From contig WFVD01000008.1 of assembly GCA_015491865.1 (NCBI GenBank), positions 138,002-202,001 on the forward strand: DNA of 64,000 nucleotides. Reading direction: 5' to 3'. Below the pieces are notes generated by a model that worked only from the letters and a program-made list of their open reading frames with translations, was not told where the DNA came from and did not search any database. Of this stretch, positions 22,408-56,311 are shown piece after piece (the first letter of the stretch is position 1; every line of letters begins with the position of its first letter). The position numbers and the translations under genes were made by a program. The DNA is from Gammaproteobacteria bacterium. Its GTDB lineage: Bacteria; Pseudomonadota; Gammaproteobacteria; SZUA-140.

Positions 22408-25400
22408 ATGCCATTCAGGAACGCTATTTCACCATATGAGCAGGGTTTAAGTATGTTGGTCACGCAACAGTCACAGCGCTCACATCAGCAGCGAAATGCC
22501 ATCATCCGCTGGTTGTCTGTCGCTGTACTCGCTTTTGCTATTTCTGCTGAACCCTTCGCTGCCCCTGATATTGAAGCCGCTTTCCCCGCTGCAACCAATC
22601 TGGTCACAAACGGCCCTGTGCTGGCAAGTGCCTCGTTTGGCTCGAATAGCGGGGAGACGACAGGGCTTGGTGTCGGGCTGGATGCGGCGACCGCACTGAT
22701 TAACCCGCGCTTCCCAAAAGTGGCCGGCGGAGCCTCTAGCCAGATATACGCGGTTATTGAAGATGGCTTTGGTGGTTGGGTGATCGGGGGTGATTTCGAT
22801 ACGGTGGGCGGTGTGGCGCTAAGAAACCTCGCACATATCCAGGCCGACCTCAGTGTCAACAGTGCCTGGCGGCCCAATCCTGATGGTGTTGTCAGGGCGC
22901 TGCTGTTCCATACCGGCAGCAAGGGGCTGCGGCTGCTGGTCGGGGGGGATTTTACCCAGATCCATGGCGAGGCTCGTAGCTATTTTGCTGAGCTCCATAC
23001 CGGTTCGATATCCAAACCAGTGACCTCGCTGGATCTTTTTATAGATGCGCCGGTACATGCGATTGCCAAAGCAGATGAGACGCTGGTTTATATCGCCGGT
23101 GAGTTTACTGTTGTGCGCGGAACAGGTCCGCGAGATGATGATGGCGATGGGCATCTTGATGTCGATATTAATGGTTGGGTCAAGGTCGATATGGATGGCG
23201 ATGGCGTTTTTGAAACGTCGATGAATATTGTTGGTGATGGTGTCAATGATATTGATGTCGATGGCGATGGTGATATTGATATTGATGTGACGCTTGATGG
23301 TGTAGTGGATGCAGATATCAATGTCGATTATAGCCAGCCAGATCCAGCGCCATCATTAGATGTGCCGTTTGACCAGACCTATCCGCAGGTTTCTCGTCAA
23401 AGGATCGCCGCACTTGATCTGGATGCAGAAAGTAACGGCATGGTGGTGGATGAATGGAACCCGAATGCTGATGGTGTTGTGCGTACGATAGCGCTTGCAC
23501 CTGAGCGTAGTAAGCTCTATGTCGGCGGAGACTTTTTGAATATCTCCGTTGGTAGTGGTGCCAATATCAGTCGTCAACGCATCGCAGCATTGAATACAGC
23601 CAATAATATCAACATTATTACGACCTGGAATCCTGGTGGAGCATCAACAAATTCAATTTATGCAATGTACCTCGAAGAGTTCGGGATTGATAACGAAAGC
23701 GGTGAAGAGAACGGCCTGCTCTATGTGGGTGGTGATTTTACGGAGATAGGGGGCAAGTCACGTCAGAACTTTGCAGTACTTGATATCGCGCTGGCGGTGA
23801 ACAATGCGAATGCGTGGGATTTGCAGTTTGATGATGTTGTGCTTGCCATTGCGCGGGCAGACGAGACCTTCTTCATTGGCGGCGCGTTTAATTCGGTGAC
23901 GATAGAGGGTGTGGTGGAGAGTGACTTTAAACGCCTTGCTGCATTCAGGCGTGGCCCCGGAACATTGATTACTGCCTGGAACCCGGATGTTAATGGTGAT
24001 GTGAGTGCGCTAGCGGCCAGTGAGACTACAGGCATCGTCTATGCTGGAGGGAAGTTCAATTCTGTGGGTGACACATCGCGGCTTTACATTGGCGGCGATT
24101 TTACCTATATCGGGCCGAGTACCGGTAGCGGCGTGGTGGTGGATACCTCAGCCGGGATTGTGCAAAGCGGGTGGCCTGAGGTGAATGGTGATGTTTATGC
24201 AGCGATATCCGATGGTAGTGATGGTTGGTACATCGGCGGTAGTTTTAGTGAGATTACGGATAGTGTGTCGACCTATACCCGCAATAATGTGGCTCATATT
24301 AGTAGTGCGGGCACGGTGACCAGCTGGGATCCCAGTACGAACGGTGCTGTTCATGCGATGGCAGTGAACGGTACTTCGGTTTATATAGGAGGCGATTTCA
24401 CAACGATCGGTGGGCAGGCGAGAAACAATATTGCACTCACCGATAGCAGCGGCACGACGACCAGCTGGGATCCCGGTGCGAACGGTGTTGTTCGTACATT
24501 GGCAGTGAGTGGTACTTCTGTATACGCAGGAGGTGACTTCACGACAATCGGTGGGCAGGCGAGAAACTATGTTGCACTCATCGATAACAGCGGCACGACG
24601 ACCAGCTGGGATCCCGGTGCGAACGGTGTTGTTCGTACATTGGCGGTGAGTGGTACTTCTGTATACGCCGGGGGCGACTTCACGACAATCGGTGGGCAGG
24701 CGAGAAACCATGTTGCACTCATCGATAACAGCGGCGCGACGACCAGCTGGGATCCCGGTGCGAACGGTGTTGTTCGTACATTGGCAGTGAGTGGTACTTC
24801 TGTATACGCCGGGGGCGACTTCACGACAATCGGTGGGCAGGCGAGAAACCATGTTGCACTCATCGATAACAGCGGCGCAGCAGCGAGCTGGGACCCCAAT
24901 GCCGATGCGCCCGTTTCAGAACTCCTGTTCGATAGTGGCACCGTCTATGTCGGCGGTGATTTTAGCTTTATCGGTAGCCTATTACGTAATCGCGCGGCAG
25001 CATTTACAGTGGGTAGTAGTGTGGCAACGGCCTGGGCCCCTTCGGTTGGCAATAGCGTGCATGCGCTGTCGCCCGGTGCGGCGGGTATCTTTATTGGCGG
25101 TGCCTTCTCTTCCGTGGGTGGGGTTACACGAGAGCGAATCGCAGCCATCGATTTAAGTAGTGGTGGGCTTGATGCCAGTTTTAATGTTGGCACCAATGCA
25201 AGGATAACGACCATGCAGCTAAGCGGTGATGGCACGACACTCTATGTGGGCGGGGAGTTTACTTCCGTGGGTGGGCAGCCGCGTAACCATATCGCAGCAT
25301 TAAACACAGAGACCGGTGCAGCATACCCCTGGAACCCTGACATTAATGGTACTACATCAACAACCGCAGCATATGACATTGAACTGTCCGCAGCGGGCGA

Positions 25401-51483: not shown

Positions 51484-51534
51484 CTGTCCAGCATAGTGAA
51501 ATCGTGTTGGGTGGTCAATCGGCATGCGGTGGTT

Positions 51535-51572
51535 TACAGTGTTCCGATACCCCACCATCGGAATGCTTGATA
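51535..51572 (+). CRISPR. Solitary CRISPR-repeat-like sequence; downstream arm of a 23-bp perfect inverted repeat (CCCCACCATCGGAATGCTTGATA) with imperfect extension
   Basis: Positions 51550-51572 are exactly reverse-complementary to 55168-55190. Similarity extends with indels to about 38 nt. It lies 3 nt from the stop of the cas1 stub. Only a single copy is present, so there is no array. Confidence 0.4.
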
Positions 51573-51575
51573 AAC

Positions 51576-51812
51576 TCACTTCGCTTGCAGCATCACTGAG
51601 CTAGGAGTAATCAGTACCGCTGCTCCGGCCTCAGCCAATATGCGTAATACGTTGACTGTCAGGCTGATGGTGTGGTGATGCAAACACAGTACGGCGATGT
51701 CAGCAGGTAGTACATGCGCGTCCTCATGATCCTGTCGTGCAATCCTGATGCGGCCCAAATCCACCGACAGGTGGGCGGGGTTTTCGATGAGAAGGATGCG
51801 GTTATCAGGCAT
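51576..51812 (-). pseudogene. cas1: cas1 5' fragment (first roughly 75 codons only)
   Basis: MPDNRILLIENPAHLSVDLGRIRIARQDHEDAHVLPADIAVLCLHHHTISLTVNVLRILAEAGAAVLI matches the conserved N-terminal beta-sandwich of Cas1. The start overlaps the cas9 stop (TAATG), as in type II-C operons. The ORF terminates after 78 codons, where Cas1 is normally about 300 aa. Confidence 0.6.
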
Positions 51813-54800
51813 TAGTCCACCAGTTTGAGGCGGGCAATACTTGTGCCGCCAACCACGCGCCGTCCCTGTTGTTTTTGCGACAGTTTGTGTTGTCTCATGG
51901 TTGCATCCATATCCGCGATTTCTCTCGCTTCCGTTATTGGAATGAGAAATATCTGCAGCCCCTGTTCTCTGAAGGATTTCACAATAAAGTGATCCCCGTC
52001 TTTTGTATCTTCCATCGTGTCACCCTTAAAAAATCGTCGGGTATTGGGTGGATTCGGTTGATCTTTCTTTTGCAGCGCCTCGGGTTGTGTAACCAGGCGG
52101 GGTTTCGGTTTCTCTCCAGGTGTTTCCGTTAATTCAAGATAAGCGTAACCATCGTATTGCAGGTATTTGTAGTGAGGCTTGTCAGGTGTGCTGTGGCGAC
52201 TATTGAATTCAATTTTCCAGGCGGTGTTTGCTGAGTCGCGCAACATTTTTACCTGCCGAATAACATTGCGATATCGGGGGTGCTGGATATTCGTTAATGC
52301 CTCTTTTGCAGTTTTTCCTGCTGCAATGCGTTTATCAAAAACACTTAGCACTAATCGGCGTGTGTCAGGACTGGCGATTTTCTCTAACTTTTTGCGCACA
52401 GCATCGGGTTTGCTTTTGTCGTCAGCCAGTGTTTCAAGATTCTGGCGCAGTGTAAGTTGCTGTTTGGGATCAGCATTGGGGTCTTTGTCATTTTCCACCC
52501 AGGTGACGCCATAAGCAGTGCCTTTGAACAATGACCCACCTATATGCCGCTCTGGTTTGTGGACGATGTGATGTTCACGTGTCATCTCAAGCGCCTGAGT
52601 ACGAATATCTTTTAATGGGGGATTGATGGAGAGTTTCAGTTTGATGTGTTGATCCGTTTGCGCACGTTCGCTTAAGGTCTTGTAATTGTGCGCCATCTTT
52701 TGATACAGGCCGCGGGAAGTGAGGGCGATGACTAATGCGTCAATGACGTGATGCCGATGGTCGATACGTTTTTCGATCATTTTGTCGGTGCGTTGAACGC
52801 CGCTGTGATTATTGTTGTGACCTTCCCAGTAGGGTTTGTATTTTTTAAATTCTTCTTCATTAATCAGGTTTTTTTCGGTATCAAAAACGGGCAGGCCAGA
52901 CTCGTAACGAATTTCCGGGATAACGGTATTTAGCCCCCATATTTTTCTCAGGTGCGCGGTCATTGCACCGCGGCTGACCGCAACATCGGAACAGACCGTA
53001 CGCATCCACTGTGCCGCCAGTTTGGAAATCCACGAGGTTTCGTGATACTGACGATTGGTGAAATCGTCGATGATGTCACTGTTGATTTTCTCTGCTTTCC
53101 AGTCTTGCAGGGTGAGAAAACGTGCTTTGGCAAAGCGTCGTTTCTTTTCCAGCGCTTTGGCTCGTTCGGTGATAATTTTCCATTTGTTAATGTCATCACC
53201 CCCGGCTTGCCAGGGGGTGCGGTTTCCCTTTTCATCATTACAGGAACGGTGTGATAGCATGAGGTGGTCTTGTTGGCGGCCAACGCGGGTGAGGGTACGC
53301 GGAATGATATGTTCCAGATTGGTTTCGTTGCCATCCACTGCTGCGCCGAGACTGATCCTTCGTTCACAGTAGGGGCAATTGGTATCCTGTTCCTGCCACA
53401 GCCGCCAGCGGAAGATATTAGTGGAGGTTGCGGGATGGCTGTTTTTCTCCAGGTCTTCCCTGGCCTTTTTGCGTTCGCGTTGATTTTTATCTATGCCTTT
53501 TTCAATTTCACCGCGGCGTTTTAATCCCAACCCCATGTCACGACTAAGCTCGATGACCACTTCCGCAGGTGGCTCGCCACCCATGGCATCAATAGCATTG
53601 TTGACGGCGTAGCGCATTTGGCGCAGGGCAACATCAACCACGATGTTGCCGGTAGGTCAATGGGAATCAAGATGTGTGGATAGTTCAGCTTTTTCTTCAG
53701 GTTTTGGATGACAGGCTAAGATGGCGTCGTATTCATCCATGCCTCCGCGCATTTTTTCCGTGAGTTTTTTAATGCCTTGATGGAATAGGCGCTACGTCCA
53801 CTATCGAATCCCATTTTACTGAGGCGGTCAAATTTGCCGCTGGTAACCATGGCGTTAATGAAGTTCACCATGTCAGGAGAAAATTTACGTAATTCCCCAG
53901 GTTTTCCATCTTTGCCTTTACCGCGATACTGGAGATGCCAGTCTTTACGATCCACTTCCTGTGGTGACCCCAGGTCAGCAAGAAAGTTGATGATGCTGAT
54001 TTGTGTGCCTTCGTTGAGTGCCAGCCATTGTTCGGCAAGCCCTAATTTTCCCACCGCTTTCAGAGTGCTGTTGCCTTTGAGTTCAGGTCGGCTGGGCCGG
54101 TCAAAATTAAGTCCGCGTTTGTCTGGATTTGGGCAGCCTGCTTTATTTAGTGCCGTGTTAATTTGCAAGAAAGTTGCTTTCTCTTTTGTCGAGAGCAACT
54201 TGCGGATAACGGTTTTTTGCTCTGGTGTAAGTTGTTGGGAACGACGCCCCATGCCCCAACGCAAATCGGCAATCTGTTTTTCAATGCGAAACGCTTGTGC
54301 GGCGGGTTGACTCATGGGGGCCCGCGGCAGATTGGGTTCCAATGGACATTGCCCCACCATCGCAGTAACGGATTTCAGTGGCCGCTGGTAAAAGATAACG
54401 TCGCGGAAAACCTCTTTGAGTGGATTGTCTTTGTATCGCTCATTCAGGCCTTCGTATAGCCCATTCAGAATTGAATGAGTCACTGACTGCACTTTCCAGA
54501 TTTGTTCAAACTCGGCTTCCACCATTTCCCGGCTGACGTACAGGCCATGGGGTTTTGCTTCTTTCAGCTTGAGGGTTTCGCCGTTGTTGAAACGGTGCAG
54601 CAGGTATTGCCCAAGCCACTCACCATTCGCATCCTGCATTAGTTGTTTGAGCTGAGTGATGCCGCCTTCAACCTGGCCTTCATCGCCTTCTTTACTTAAC
54701 CTGAAAGCCTCCCGCATAACCACGCCGTTTGGACATTCGAAAAAATACCCTGGCCAGATCATCCAGCGCAATGGGTTTTGTGGTTGCTTGGCTGCGGGCC

Positions 54801-55105
54801 TCATGAAGACGTCGGCCGTTATCAGGGGTGATAGTCTGAGGGTCAATGTCGAGTAGTTCACAGATGGCCGCAAGATCATGTAAACGGCTGGCGCGGCGGT
54901 CGATCAGTCGTCGGGTACGTCGGGCCATGCCCCGGCCAGATGCCTTGGTGCTACCAATACCACCTCCGGTAGCAGCTTCTACCGGCTCCTGAAAGATATG
55001 CGCGCTGTGATAGGCGATATTTTCGGGCGTGGATTCGTTGTCCAGTGTGATACAGGCAAGACCAACCGATGCGGTGCCAAAATCAATCCCCAGTCGATAA
55101 GGCAT
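51812..55105 (-). pseudogene. cas9: Type II-C cas9, full-length footprint (about 1098 codons) but disrupted by two frameshifts and one in-frame TGA
   Basis: Three collinear ORF fragments. Fragment 55105-54692 carries RuvC-I (YRLGIDFGTASVGLA), the Arg-rich bridge helix (ARRTRRLIDRRASRL) and the RGY motif. Fragment 54879-53716 is the REC lobe. Fragment 53641-51812 carries RuvC-II (VVIELSRD), HNH (CPYCERR...LEHIIP...SCNDEKGNRTP), RuvC-III (HRHHVIDALVIA) and the PI domain. See findings for the exact lesions. Confidence 0.8.
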
Positions 55106-55167
55106 TTTTTCTCTCCATGATTTATTGTGCTTGCCATTACACCACATGGTTGCTAGGGTTTTCCTGT

Positions 55168-55251
55168 ATCAAGCATTCCGATGGTGGGGACTATCGGTAA
55201 CAAGTGTTTATCACACCGATACAGAACGGCTGCTTCGGCAGTCGTTTTTTT
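55168..55251 (+). ncRNA. Candidate tracrRNA: anti-repeat (upstream arm of the inverted repeat), then a linker and a strong intrinsic terminator
   Basis: 55168-55190 is the reverse complement of 51550-51572 (extended pairing to about 55208). The terminator at 55226-55251 has an 8-bp stem ACGGCTGC/GCAGTCGT with a UUCG tetraloop followed by T7. It lies 63 nt upstream of cas9 and is divergent from it. Confidence 0.45.
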
Positions 55252-56234
55252 ATGATTGAATATTGTGTACACCGCTTGCCGAATCAAGTTCTTTCATTGA
55301 TTTTAGGGAGTCTGATTCTGCGTGCAAATGTGTTTTTCAGCGTTGTGCTGGGTGGAATCTTTAGCTAGAATCCGGTCTGTTTGTTAATAAGTGGATTCAA
55401 TGCTTTTTACAACATACAAGGCGGCAGATGCTCTCCTGGTGGCAATCAAGCCGACCTGATGACCTTCCCATTCCATGCGGATATATTTTCCTACGAAACA
55501 CCAGTTGAATTTTGTTGTCTGAGATACCGCTAGGCGGTGAGGGGCATCGATGAGATTATCGACCCTTCTTTGAATAAATACCGGTAAACAGTCGCTAAAA
55601 AATGATGGCGTGCCAGGATGGCAGAAGGCAATTTGATGCGGTTATTTTAGGGCTGCCTTATACTGCAATTCATTGGTAGCAGATCTGGTGGTGAAATATG
55701 GGCGAGCTATATTGATCTCACCGATTGCTCTGAACCGATTTTGAAATACGAGTATGAACGGCAGTTAAATACCCATCTAAGTTAGTCAATAATAACCATA
55801 TAAAAAGTAGTTGATTTATAGTGGGTGATCCTCTAGACTCTTTATCGCACGACAGACATTCCATGCATCTCCTCCTCTCTCGGGGTCGAGTGATTCGGCC
55901 CCGGGCGGTGCAAGGGATGGTGATTGACCGGCACTCCCGGCTGTGATGAGCATCAGGTTATTGGTTATGGATTATCGATGCCTGGGCTTTACCCCCCCTG
56001 CGCAGCCGGGATGTGTCAAATTTCTACGGTTAACTATAAAACACTAATCCCCGCCTGTATTTTTGTTGCCTTCCCTCTTTGTGAGCAATGCGCGATGGAC
56101 TGGAGCGCCAGGTTCTTCAGGGCGGCAACCTCGACGTGAGATGAATCAATGAGTTAAGTGATGATGTCGCTGCTTCACGCCTCGTCATGAGAATAAATCA
56201 GAGGTTGCTTAGTAACGTAGCTGACGCTCAGATG

Positions 56235-56268
56235 AAAAAAAACGCCACTCTGAAATCAGAGTGGCGTT
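56235..56268 (-). terminator. Rho-independent terminator of prk
   Basis: On the minus strand a 10-12-bp perfect stem (ACGCCACTCTGA / TCAGAGTGGCGT) is followed by U8. Confidence 0.65.
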
Positions 56269-56311
56269 TGAGCAGATCACATTAAAACACTCGCCTGAAA
56301 AGCGGTGGCTA

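What the first reader, a model, noticed from the sequence alone, without database searches (positions are those of the whole stretch)
51535..55251. Relic type II-C CRISPR-Cas locus: cas9 pseudogene, cas1 stub, no cas2 and no array, bracketed by a repeat/anti-repeat-like inverted repeat
Seen in sequence: a full-length cas9 footprint (RuvC-I, bridge helix, REC, RuvC-II, HNH, RuvC-III, PI in order) is immediately followed, with a TAATG overlap, by only the first roughly 75 codons of cas1. The next gene is an unrelated BamE-like secreted protein, so cas2 and the array are gone. The whole remnant is flanked by a perfect 23-bp inverted repeat (51550-51572 against 55168-55190; extended imperfect similarity of about 38 nt, which is CRISPR-repeat length). 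The region looks AT-richer than its neighbours, though this is an impression and was not computed. Inference: this is a horizontally acquired II-C system caught in the process of decay, with its RNA components partly preserved.
Basis: partly seen in the sequence, partly recalled or inferred. Interest (0 to 1): 0.75.

Follow-up and report, generated by a model that had tools for sequence, protein, structure and literature searches.

The report
Decayed type II-C CRISPR-Cas9 locus
This is the dead remnant of a Cas9-type bacterial immune system: a broken cas9 gene, a stub of cas1, one leftover CRISPR repeat with one spacer, and an apparently intact guide-helper RNA gene. It is an ordinary case of gene decay, but unusually well documented.

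Summary

- **cas9:** On the minus strand, cas9 (55105-51812) carries three single-nucleotide lesions. Repairing them in silico gives a 1097-aa Cas9 that is 81-83% identical to intact relatives.
- **cas1:** cas1 keeps 69 homologous codons, and cas2 and the array are absent.
- **The inverted repeat:** The 23-nt inverted repeat is not a REP or MITE element. Its left arm lies in a 36-nt sequence (51541-51576) identical to the consensus repeat of real arrays next to related cas9 genes. Its right arm is the anti-repeat of a tracrRNA gene (55166-55250, + strand) with a promoter-like site, two covarying hairpins and a terminator.
- **The spacer:** The 30 nt between the repeat and the cas1 stub have exactly one spacer length. 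The remnant is therefore the cas-distal (by the II-C literature, oldest) spacer plus the terminal "extra" repeat.
- **Population:** The same relic occurs in 12 other assemblies. Substitutions in cas9 and cas1 are 8 nonsynonymous to 1 synonymous, against 3 to 10 in flanking genes. This fits neutral decay.
- **Relatives:** One relative carries an intact locus upstream of the same BamE-like gene. Two other relatives have different DNA there.

This is a known kind of thing and of low interest.

The parts
55131..55159 (+). Promoter-like site for the tracrRNA: TTGCCA (55131-55136), 17-nt spacer, TAGGGT (55154-55159). It is divergent from cas9.
   Evidence: Read from the sequence. The same TTGCCA/TTGCTA-17-TAGGGT/TAGTGT arrangement is conserved upstream of the anti-repeat in L095, L097, L098, L099 and L104. 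It falls below the threshold of the generic promoter scan. Expression was not tested.
55166..55250 (+). tracrRNA gene. The anti-repeat is 55166-55201, including the perfect 23-nt arm at 55167-55189. Hairpin 1 is 55204-55216. The terminator hairpin is 55223-55248, followed by a U-run.
   Evidence: It is 76-98% identical to the sequence upstream of cas9 in 12 related loci. In the 13-sequence alignment A1, 10 of 27 predicted pairs show compensatory changes, and the window copy keeps all pairs. A terminator is found at 55223-55248. The fold z-score is -5.4. No Rfam family matches.
51812..55105 (-). cas9 pseudogene, type II-C. Lesions are a +1 T at 54694 (TAA plus frameshift), a -1 in the A-run at 53765-53770, and a TGA nonsense codon at 53659-53657.
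   Evidence: The repaired protein scores 398 bits on TIGR01865. It is 83% identical end to end to the intact Cas9 of L098 and 81% to that of L104. Catalytic motifs are still present: GIDFGTAS, VVIELSRD, NLEHIIPR..CND and HRHHVIDALV.
51607..51812 (-). cas1 stub of 69 homologous codons. The ORF runs on through the spacer to a TGA at 51578-51576.
   Evidence: It is 77% identical to residues 1-69 of the L003 Cas1. It matches TIGR03639 (cas1_NMENI) at profile positions 2-68 of 278. DNA homology to six related loci stops at exactly 51607.
51577..51606 (+). Single retained spacer, 30 nt: CACTTCGCTTGCAGCATCACTGAGCTAGGA in crRNA sense.
   Evidence: It lies exactly between the end of cas1 homology and the repeat. 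In the related arrays, 227 of 237 spacers are 30 nt. It is unlike the conserved cas2-proximal leader. It is unique in the window. No protospacer was found in viral contigs.
51541..51576 (+). Solo CRISPR repeat GTTCCGATACCCCACCATCGGAATGCTTGATAAACT. It is the cas-distal terminal ('extra') repeat. Its 3' end carries an extended -10-like motif, TGATAAACT.
   Evidence: It is 36/36 identical to the consensus repeat of the arrays in L003 (18 of 19 copies), L099 (32 of 32), L100 and L102. The TGnTAnACT motif is kept in all repeat variants. The promoter function is inferred from the II-C literature (PMC12080349).
51521..51540 (.). Short trailer or junction between the solo repeat and the native chromosome.
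   Evidence: Homology to relatives L004, L006 and L104 begins at 51519-51520, at the -35 box of the BamE-like gene's promoter-like site (51518-51490, minus strand).

Best explanation
This is the non-functional remnant of a type II-C CRISPR-Cas9 system.

**Ancestral state (inferred from intact relatives).** The locus was tracrRNA (divergent), cas9, cas1, cas2, a leader, and then an array of 36-nt repeats and 30-nt spacers. The array was transcribed towards the cas genes, probably from a promoter inside each repeat.

**What happened in this lineage.**
- One deletion removed cas1 from codon 70 onwards, cas2, the leader and every repeat-spacer unit except the last. This fused the cas-distal spacer and the terminal repeat to cas1 codon 69.
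- cas9 then, or earlier, acquired a +1 insertion, a homopolymer -1 deletion and, in part of the population, a nonsense codon.

**Present state.**
- No full-length Cas9 can be made.
- No new spacers can be acquired.
- The one remaining spacer has no downstream repeat, so it cannot become a crRNA.
- The tracrRNA gene is structurally intact and may still be transcribed, but it has no partner.

Shown here: the anatomy, the identity of each part, the lesions, their presence across assemblies, and the neutral substitution pattern. Inferred: the order of events, the deletion mechanism (illegitimate recombination at a 2-nt AC microhomology), and any residual transcription.
For: - **Repeat identity:** The solo repeat is 36/36 identical to the consensus repeats of real arrays. 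The 23-mer occurs in 25 metagenome contigs, as arrays or as cas9-proximal single copies.
- **tracrRNA:** It is conserved in 13 loci with 10 covarying pairs and has a terminator. Repeat and anti-repeat covary, GAUA:UAUC in most loci against GACA:UGUC in L094 and L096.
- **cas9:** Three point lesions were mapped against intact homologues, and repairing them gives a 1097-aa ORF.
- **cas1:** Homology ends at 51607 in all comparisons, followed by 30 nt (the modal spacer length) and then the repeat.
- **Intact relative:** L104 has tracr-cas9-cas1-cas2 and 13 repeats upstream of the same BamE-like gene.
- **Presence across assemblies:** Twelve other assemblies come from several runs and samples. The +1 T is present in 9 of 9 that cover it. 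The deletion junction is identical in 12 of 12. The A6 run is present in 10 of 11. The nonsense codon is polymorphic.
- **Neutral evolution:** Substitutions in cas9 and cas1 are 8 nonsynonymous to 1 synonymous, against 3 to 10 in flanking genes (one-sided Fisher p = 0.004). There is also a 12-nt deletion in L116.
- **Literature:** II-C arrays have a promoter in each repeat and acquire spacers at the last repeat. Their first repeat is an 'extra' repeat next to the oldest spacer (PMC12080349). In several type II systems, including Neisseria meningitidis and Campylobacter jejuni, the array is transcribed opposite to the cas operon, and the anti-repeat can lie upstream of cas9 (PMC3737331).
Against: - No reads were examined. 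Many of the assemblies appear to come from one sampling series (SRR103124xx-5xx, SAMN122393xx), so they are not fully independent.
- The rest of the genome could not be searched. A second intact type II locus that uses this tracrRNA or repeat is therefore not excluded.
- There are no expression data.
- The tracrRNA, repeat and spacer (151 nt in total) have no polymorphism. At the pseudogene's SNP density only about 0.4 SNPs are expected there, so this says nothing about selection either way.
- One assembly (L115) has A7 in the homopolymer run, so that frameshift is either recurrent, reverted or an assembly error.
Confidence: 0.9

Rival explanations
1. The lesions are sequencing or assembly artefacts, and the cas9 gene, or even the whole locus, is intact in the organism.
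For: The lesion at 53765-53770 is in a homopolymer run, and one assembly (L115) has the frame-restoring A7. All sources are metagenome assemblies.
Against: - The +1 T at 54694 is not in a homopolymer and is present in all 9 other assemblies that cover it.
- The loss of cas1, cas2 and the array is structural, and the junction is identical in 12 of 12 assemblies.
- Substitutions in the remnant are 8 nonsynonymous to 1 synonymous, and one assembly has a 12-nt deletion.
Confidence: 0.02
2. The inverted repeat marks the ends of a mobile element, or is a genome-wide REP or MITE element, and is unrelated to CRISPR RNA.
For: It brackets the cas genes, and the interval is variable among relatives.
Against: - There are only two copies in 64 kb.
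- In 25 metagenome contigs the 23-mer occurs in period-66 arrays or once upstream of cas9.
- One arm is a full 36-nt consensus repeat, and the other is followed by conserved tracrRNA hairpins and a terminator.
- Homology to other loci ends at the tracrRNA terminator, not at the inverted repeat.
Confidence: 0.01
3. The remnant has been put to a new use. The tracrRNA and the solo repeat would still be made. They could act as a regulatory pair, as Francisella scaRNA:tracrRNA does in repressing a lipoprotein gene. They could also be used in trans by another Cas9, possibly affecting the adjacent BamE-like gene.
For: - The tracrRNA gene and the repeat are undamaged, and the repeat pairs perfectly with the anti-repeat.
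- The repeat sits about 22 nt upstream of the -35 box of the BamE-like gene's promoter-like site.
- The Francisella analogy comes from my own knowledge and was not tested here.
Against: - The local cas9 is dead and evolves neutrally.
- The divergence among assemblies is too small to show any constraint on the RNA parts.
- No second Cas9 is known for this genome, and there are no expression data.
Confidence: 0.04
4. This rival concerns origin only. The locus is not a recent horizontal arrival. It is an old resident of this chromosomal site, inherited from the common ancestor shared with the L104 lineage and lost in sister lineages.
For: - L104 carries an intact locus of the same family directly upstream of the orthologous BamE-like gene.
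- Its cas9 DNA is 76% identical and its BamE-like gene DNA 74% identical, which is similar divergence.
Against: - Two equally related genomes have other DNA there. L006 has three metabolic genes and L004 has IS fragments.
- The window keeps a remnant of one of the L006 genes at 55599-55702.
- GC content is lower than the surroundings.
- The same family also sits next to an integrase and a transposase in L003.
- The prk-side flank of L104 is not available.
Confidence: 0.35

Closest known systems
Type II-C CRISPR-Cas9 systems of the Neisseria meningitidis / Campylobacter jejuni kind (Nme1Cas9, e.g. PDB 6JDQ)
   Same: - The gene order in intact relatives is cas9-cas1-cas2 without csn2 or cas4.
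- Repeats are 36 nt and spacers 30 nt.
- The array is oriented opposite to the cas operon.
- An extended -10-like motif lies at the 3' end of each repeat.
- The tracrRNA has a bulged repeat:anti-repeat duplex, then hairpins and a terminator.
- The best solved-structure matches are II-C Cas9 proteins.
   Different: - Here the system is dead: cas9 has 3 lesions, cas1 is cut to 69 codons, cas2 and the array are gone and a single repeat and spacer remain.
- The Cas9 is only distantly related to solved ones (phmmer E about 1e-29).
- The repeat contains an internal 7-bp palindrome, which is unusual for type II repeats.
The 'extra repeat' and extraneous crRNA (ecrRNA) of II-C arrays (PMC12080349)
   Same: The retained repeat is the first repeat in the direction of array transcription. 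It lies next to the oldest spacer, as that paper defines the extra repeat.
   Different: In a working array the extra repeat is a by-product. Here it is all that is left, so the only repeat-containing RNA possible would carry flanking chromosomal sequence instead of a spacer.
Degenerate type II loci in other bacteria, such as disrupted cas9 in Francisella tularensis subspecies and truncated II-C loci in some Campylobacter strains. This comparison comes from my own knowledge and was not checked in the paper library.
   Same: These are CRISPR-Cas9 loci inactivated by frameshifts and deletions, with parts of the RNA genes still recognisable.
   Different: This is a different organism (an uncultured gammaproteobacterium) and a different Cas9 family. 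Here the decay can be followed across a sampled population, with an intact orthologous locus available for comparison.

Membership tests
Type II-C CRISPR-Cas | Cas9 signature gene with RuvC-I/II/III and HNH domains | tested here: met
   Pfam finds Cas9_a, HNH_4 and RuvC_III. The repaired ORF scores 398 bits on TIGR01865 against a cut-off of 100. It aligns colinearly to intact Cas9 proteins. It is present only as a pseudogene.
Type II-C CRISPR-Cas | Intact, translatable cas9 | tested here: not met
   There are two frameshifts and one nonsense codon. They are shared with other assemblies.
Type II-C CRISPR-Cas | Adaptation genes cas1 and cas2 | tested here: not met
   cas1 keeps 69 of about 301 codons, and cas2 is absent from the window. 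Both are present in the intact relative L104.
Type II-C CRISPR-Cas | No csn2 (II-A) or cas4 (II-B) in the operon | tested here: met
   The intact relatives L104 and L098 have only cas9, cas1 and cas2 between the tracrRNA and the array.
Type II-C CRISPR-Cas | CRISPR array of repeats and spacers | tested here: not met
   There is no array in the window. One repeat and one spacer remain. That repeat is 36/36 identical to the consensus of real arrays.
Type II-C CRISPR-Cas | tracrRNA with an anti-repeat complementary to the repeat, followed by hairpins and a terminator | tested here: met
   The duplex has 32 bp and dG -55.4 kcal/mol. The hairpins covary across 13 loci. A terminator is present. Transcription was not tested.
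Type II-C CRISPR-Cas | Repeat-embedded promoters and an array transcribed towards the cas genes | tested here: inconclusive
   The orientation follows from the tracrRNA strand. The TGnTAnACT motif is conserved at the repeat 3' end in all variants. The generic scan called no promoter there, and there are no expression data.
Pseudogene / decaying locus | Disabling lesions that are real (seen in independent assemblies) and relaxed selection | tested here: met
   The lesions and the junction are shared in 9-12 assemblies. Substitutions are 8 nonsynonymous to 1 synonymous in the remnant, against 3 to 10 in the flanks (p = 0.004). Further indels are present.
REP / MITE or transposon terminal inverted repeat | Many dispersed copies, or ends that coincide with the limits of the mobile unit | tested here: not met
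   There are two copies in 64 kb. Elsewhere the sequence occurs only in arrays or upstream of cas9. The limits of the conserved unit are the tracrRNA terminator and the array end.

The most novel reading that the evidence does not exclude
The intact tracrRNA gene and the promoter-bearing solo repeat are still transcribed and have been kept for a new use. They could act as a regulatory RNA pair near the promoter of the BamE-like gene, or as guide-RNA parts used in trans by another Cas9 encoded elsewhere in the genome. A smaller oddity is that the deletion ends exactly at a repeat/spacer boundary. This might reflect a repeat-directed or Cas1-Cas2-linked reaction rather than random illegitimate recombination.
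Probability: 0.05. Interest if true: 0.55.

Novelty: new member of a known kind. Interest (0 to 1): 0.2.

Why it matters
Loss of CRISPR-Cas is common, but it is rarely caught with every step legible. This locus offers several things together:
- an intact orthologous locus in a relative;
- a population in which the dead cas9 is accumulating further, different lesions;
- a clean deletion junction.

It is therefore a tidy worked example of how a Cas9 system decays. The adaptation module and array were lost in one deletion, the effector gene was inactivated by point lesions, and the small tracrRNA gene is the last undamaged part. It does not reveal a new mechanism. For annotation, it shows that a cas9-flanking inverted repeat should be read as a repeat and anti-repeat pair before it is called a mobile-element end.

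Tried and rejected
- **Rfam:** There were no hits at gathering threshold on the whole window. Only chance-level hits appeared at permissive E-values around the repeat and the tracrRNA. This tracrRNA family is not in Rfam.
- **Protospacer search:** The full 30-mer spacer and two 20-mers were searched in IMG/VR contigs with no exact match. There was also no match to other spacers or to the fetched loci.
- **Self-targeting as a cause of loss:** None of 237 spacers from related arrays matches the window beyond chance 12-16-mers.
- **Is the 30 nt next to cas1 a leader remnant rather than a spacer?** This was rejected, because intact loci share a conserved leader motif that the 30 nt lack.
- **Literature search for cas9 pseudogene precedents:** It returned only genome-editing papers, so the Francisella and Campylobacter precedents rest on my own knowledge.
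- **Constraint on the RNA parts from polymorphism:** This is uninformative, because 151 nt is too short at about 0.1% divergence.
- **Rest of the genome:** The source genome could not be searched for another array or cas locus. The metagenome scan did not contain this organism's own contig.
Full report
**1. Observation**

The window carries a perfect 23-nt inverted repeat at 51550-51572 and 55167-55189. The 23-mer has only these two copies in 64 kb, even with 3 mismatches allowed, and none are expected by chance.

Between the arms, on the minus strand, three consecutive ORFs carry Cas9 domains: Pfam Cas9_a, HNH_4 and RuvC_III. tblastn with intact 1065-aa Cas9 homologues gives one colinear alignment from ATG 55105 to the stop at 51812-51814, and it changes frame twice. 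There are three lesions:
- an inserted T at 54694 (AAG-T-AAA), which creates a TAA and a +1 frameshift;
- the loss of one A from a run at 53765-53770 (A7 to A6);
- a CGA>TGA nonsense codon at 53659-53657.

Repairing these three nucleotides gives an uninterrupted 1097-aa protein with all catalytic motifs. It scores 398 bits on TIGR01865. It is 83% identical end to end to the intact Cas9 of L098 and 81% to that of L104.

The cas9 stop overlaps the cas1 start (TAATG). cas1 is homologous for 69 codons only, and the 78-codon ORF then reads through unrelated sequence. The next gene is BamE-like. No cas2 and no array are present. GC content is 49.7% against 53.0 +/- 1.6% for windows of equal size, the 3.9th percentile, so the AT-richness is real but modest.

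**2. What the inverted repeat is**

The closest cas9 relative in the protein database lies on contig L003. Next to it is a 19-repeat array of period 66. Its 36-nt repeat is 100% identical to window 51541-51576, GTTCCGATACCCCACCATCGGAATGCTTGATAAACT.

A scan of public metagenomes for the 23-mer found 25 contigs. Nearly all are period-66 arrays, and several show the pattern of one copy followed about 4.6 kb later by many copies. That pattern is an anti-repeat, then cas9-cas1-cas2, then the array. The window repeat equals the consensus repeat of L003, L099, L100 and L102.

The other arm belongs to a tracrRNA gene on the + strand (55166-55250). It consists of:
- an anti-repeat;
- a short hairpin at 55204-55216;
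- a strong terminator at 55223-55248 followed by a U-run.

Thirteen versions of this RNA from related loci align well. Ten of the 27 predicted pairs show compensatory changes, and the window copy keeps every pair.

The repeat and the tracrRNA form a 32-bp duplex with the usual bulges (dG -55.4 kcal/mol, against -13.9 +/- 3.5 for shuffles). The lower stem covaries between loci, with repeat GAUA paired to tracr UAUC in most and GACA paired to UGUC in L094 and L096. A conserved TTGCCA-17-TAGGGT site lies just upstream. No Rfam family matches.

**3. What exactly is left of the array**

DNA homology of cas1 to six independent loci stops at exactly 51607. From there to the repeat is 30 nt (51577-51606). 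Of 237 spacers in the related arrays, 227 are exactly 30 nt. The 30 nt do not resemble the conserved cas2-proximal leader of intact loci.

The strand of the tracrRNA fixes the crRNA sense as the + strand, so the array was read towards the cas genes. That orientation is documented for several type II systems, including Neisseria meningitidis and Campylobacter jejuni (PMC3737331). In II-C arrays each repeat carries its own promoter, and new spacers enter at the last repeat. The first repeat is an 'extra' repeat next to the oldest spacer (PMC12080349).

The remnant is therefore that extra repeat plus the spacer next to it, the oldest on that reading. Its 3' end carries the extended -10-like motif TGATAAACT, and all repeat variants keep TGnTAnACT. 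Because the downstream repeat is gone, the spacer cannot become a crRNA. One deletion from cas1 codon 70 to the end of the penultimate repeat explains the structure. The junction shows a 2-nt AC microhomology and falls within 1 nt of a repeat/spacer boundary. I record this as unexplained, and it may be chance (about 3 in 66).

**4. Context and origin**

The window matches MAG contig JALSYR010000021.1 of GCA_027059735.1 at 99.9% identity. The closest relatives in the genome collection are uncultured Gammaproteobacteria and Chromatiaceae MAGs.
- In L006 the interval between prk and the BamE-like gene holds an aldehyde dehydrogenase, a saccharopine-dehydrogenase-like gene and a DUF gene.
- In L004 the same interval holds IS fragments.
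- The window keeps a frameshifted remnant of about 35 aa of the saccharopine-dehydrogenase-like gene at 55599-55702.
- Homology on the BamE side starts at 51519-51520, at the -35 box of that gene's promoter-like site.
- Contig L104 carries an intact tracr-cas9-cas1-cas2 locus with 13 repeats upstream of the orthologous BamE-like gene. About 1 kb with two unknown ORFs lies between the array and that gene. Its BamE segment is as similar to the window's (74%) as those of L004 and L006.

The site is thus a variable hotspot. The locus was either present in a common ancestor and lost in some lineages, or it arrived more than once. Horizontal origin is plausible, given the lower GC and the integrase and transposase next to the locus in L003, but it is not proven.

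**5. Is the decay real?**

The exact cas1-stub protein and the cas9 C-terminal ORF occur in many other assemblies from NCBI, ENA and Logan. No member of the 90% cluster is a full-length Cas9. I compared 12 of these loci with the window:

| Feature | Assemblies that cover it | Same state as the window |
|---|---|---|
| +1 T at 54694 | 9 | 9 |
| cas1/spacer junction | 12 | 12 |
| Solo repeat | 11 | 11 |
| A6 run at 53765-53770 | 11 | 10 (L115 has A7) |
| TGA at 53659-53657 | 12 | 4 (polymorphic) |

In addition, L116 has a 12-nt deletion at 54967-54978.

Substitutions in the cas9 and cas1 remnant are 8 nonsynonymous to 1 synonymous, against 3 to 10 in flanking genes (one-sided Fisher p = 0.004). 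This is the signature of a pseudogene drifting neutrally inside an otherwise constrained neighbourhood. The tracrRNA, repeat and spacer show no polymorphism, but only about 0.4 SNPs would be expected there, so nothing follows about selection on them.

**6. Verdict**

This is a relic type II-C CRISPR-Cas locus, and the inverted repeat is the repeat and anti-repeat pair. I add five refinements:
- the exact lesions;
- the identity of the remnant as the terminal repeat plus one whole spacer;
- an apparently intact tracrRNA gene;
- population evidence for neutral decay;
- an intact orthologous locus in a relative.

Nothing here departs from known biology. The only open, more interesting possibilities are residual use of the RNA parts and a non-random deletion mechanism. 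Neither has positive evidence.

Noticed in passing
window 55599-55702 (+): A frameshifted remnant of about 35 aa of a saccharopine-dehydrogenase-like gene (tblastn E 6e-7). The gene is intact between prk and the BamE-like gene in relative L006. The remnant suggests the ancestral content of this interval was deleted or replaced.
   Followed up: partly
window 55734-55770; L001 7945-8018: This 37-nt segment is tandemly duplicated in the near-identical assembly L001, and apparently in several of the others, but occurs once in the window. A 1-nt indel at 55466 is also polymorphic.
   Followed up: partly
window 51543-51564 and 55176-55197: The CRISPR repeat has an internal palindrome (TTCCGAT-N8-ATCGGAA), mirrored imperfectly in the anti-repeat. 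Each RNA could therefore fold on itself instead of pairing with the other. This is unusual for type II repeats, and its significance is unknown.
   Followed up: partly
L115 (GCA_015492695.1) at window position 53764; L116 at window 54967-54978: Within the relic-carrying population, one assembly has A7 instead of A6, which restores that reading frame while keeping the other two lesions. Another assembly has a 12-nt in-frame deletion in the RuvC-I/bridge region.
   Followed up: partly
L104 5851-6697: Two ORFs (108 and 178 aa) with no NCBIfam match lie between the array and the BamE-like gene in the relative with the intact locus. They are absent from the window.
   Followed up: partly
L003, L098, L099, L100, L104: 12-25 nt before the cas2-proximal repeat: A conserved leader motif (AATCAAnnnCTTGC) lies just before the first cas2-proximal repeat in intact loci of this family. 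It could be a leader-anchoring site for spacer integration.
   Followed up: no
L003 10001-13245: The closest cas9 relative (75% identical) is itself split into ORFs of 888 and 188 aa on a 1.87-Mb contig, next to an integrase and a transposase. It is unclear whether this is a real lesion or an assembly error.
   Followed up: no
window 24310-24876: Four tandem copies of a 141-nt unit (92% matches), probably a repeat-domain coding sequence.
   Followed up: no
window 56240-56269: A perfect 14-nt palindrome (AAACGCCACTCTGA / TCAGAGTGGCGTTT) lies just downstream of the prk stop codon. It is probably the prk terminator.
   Followed up: no
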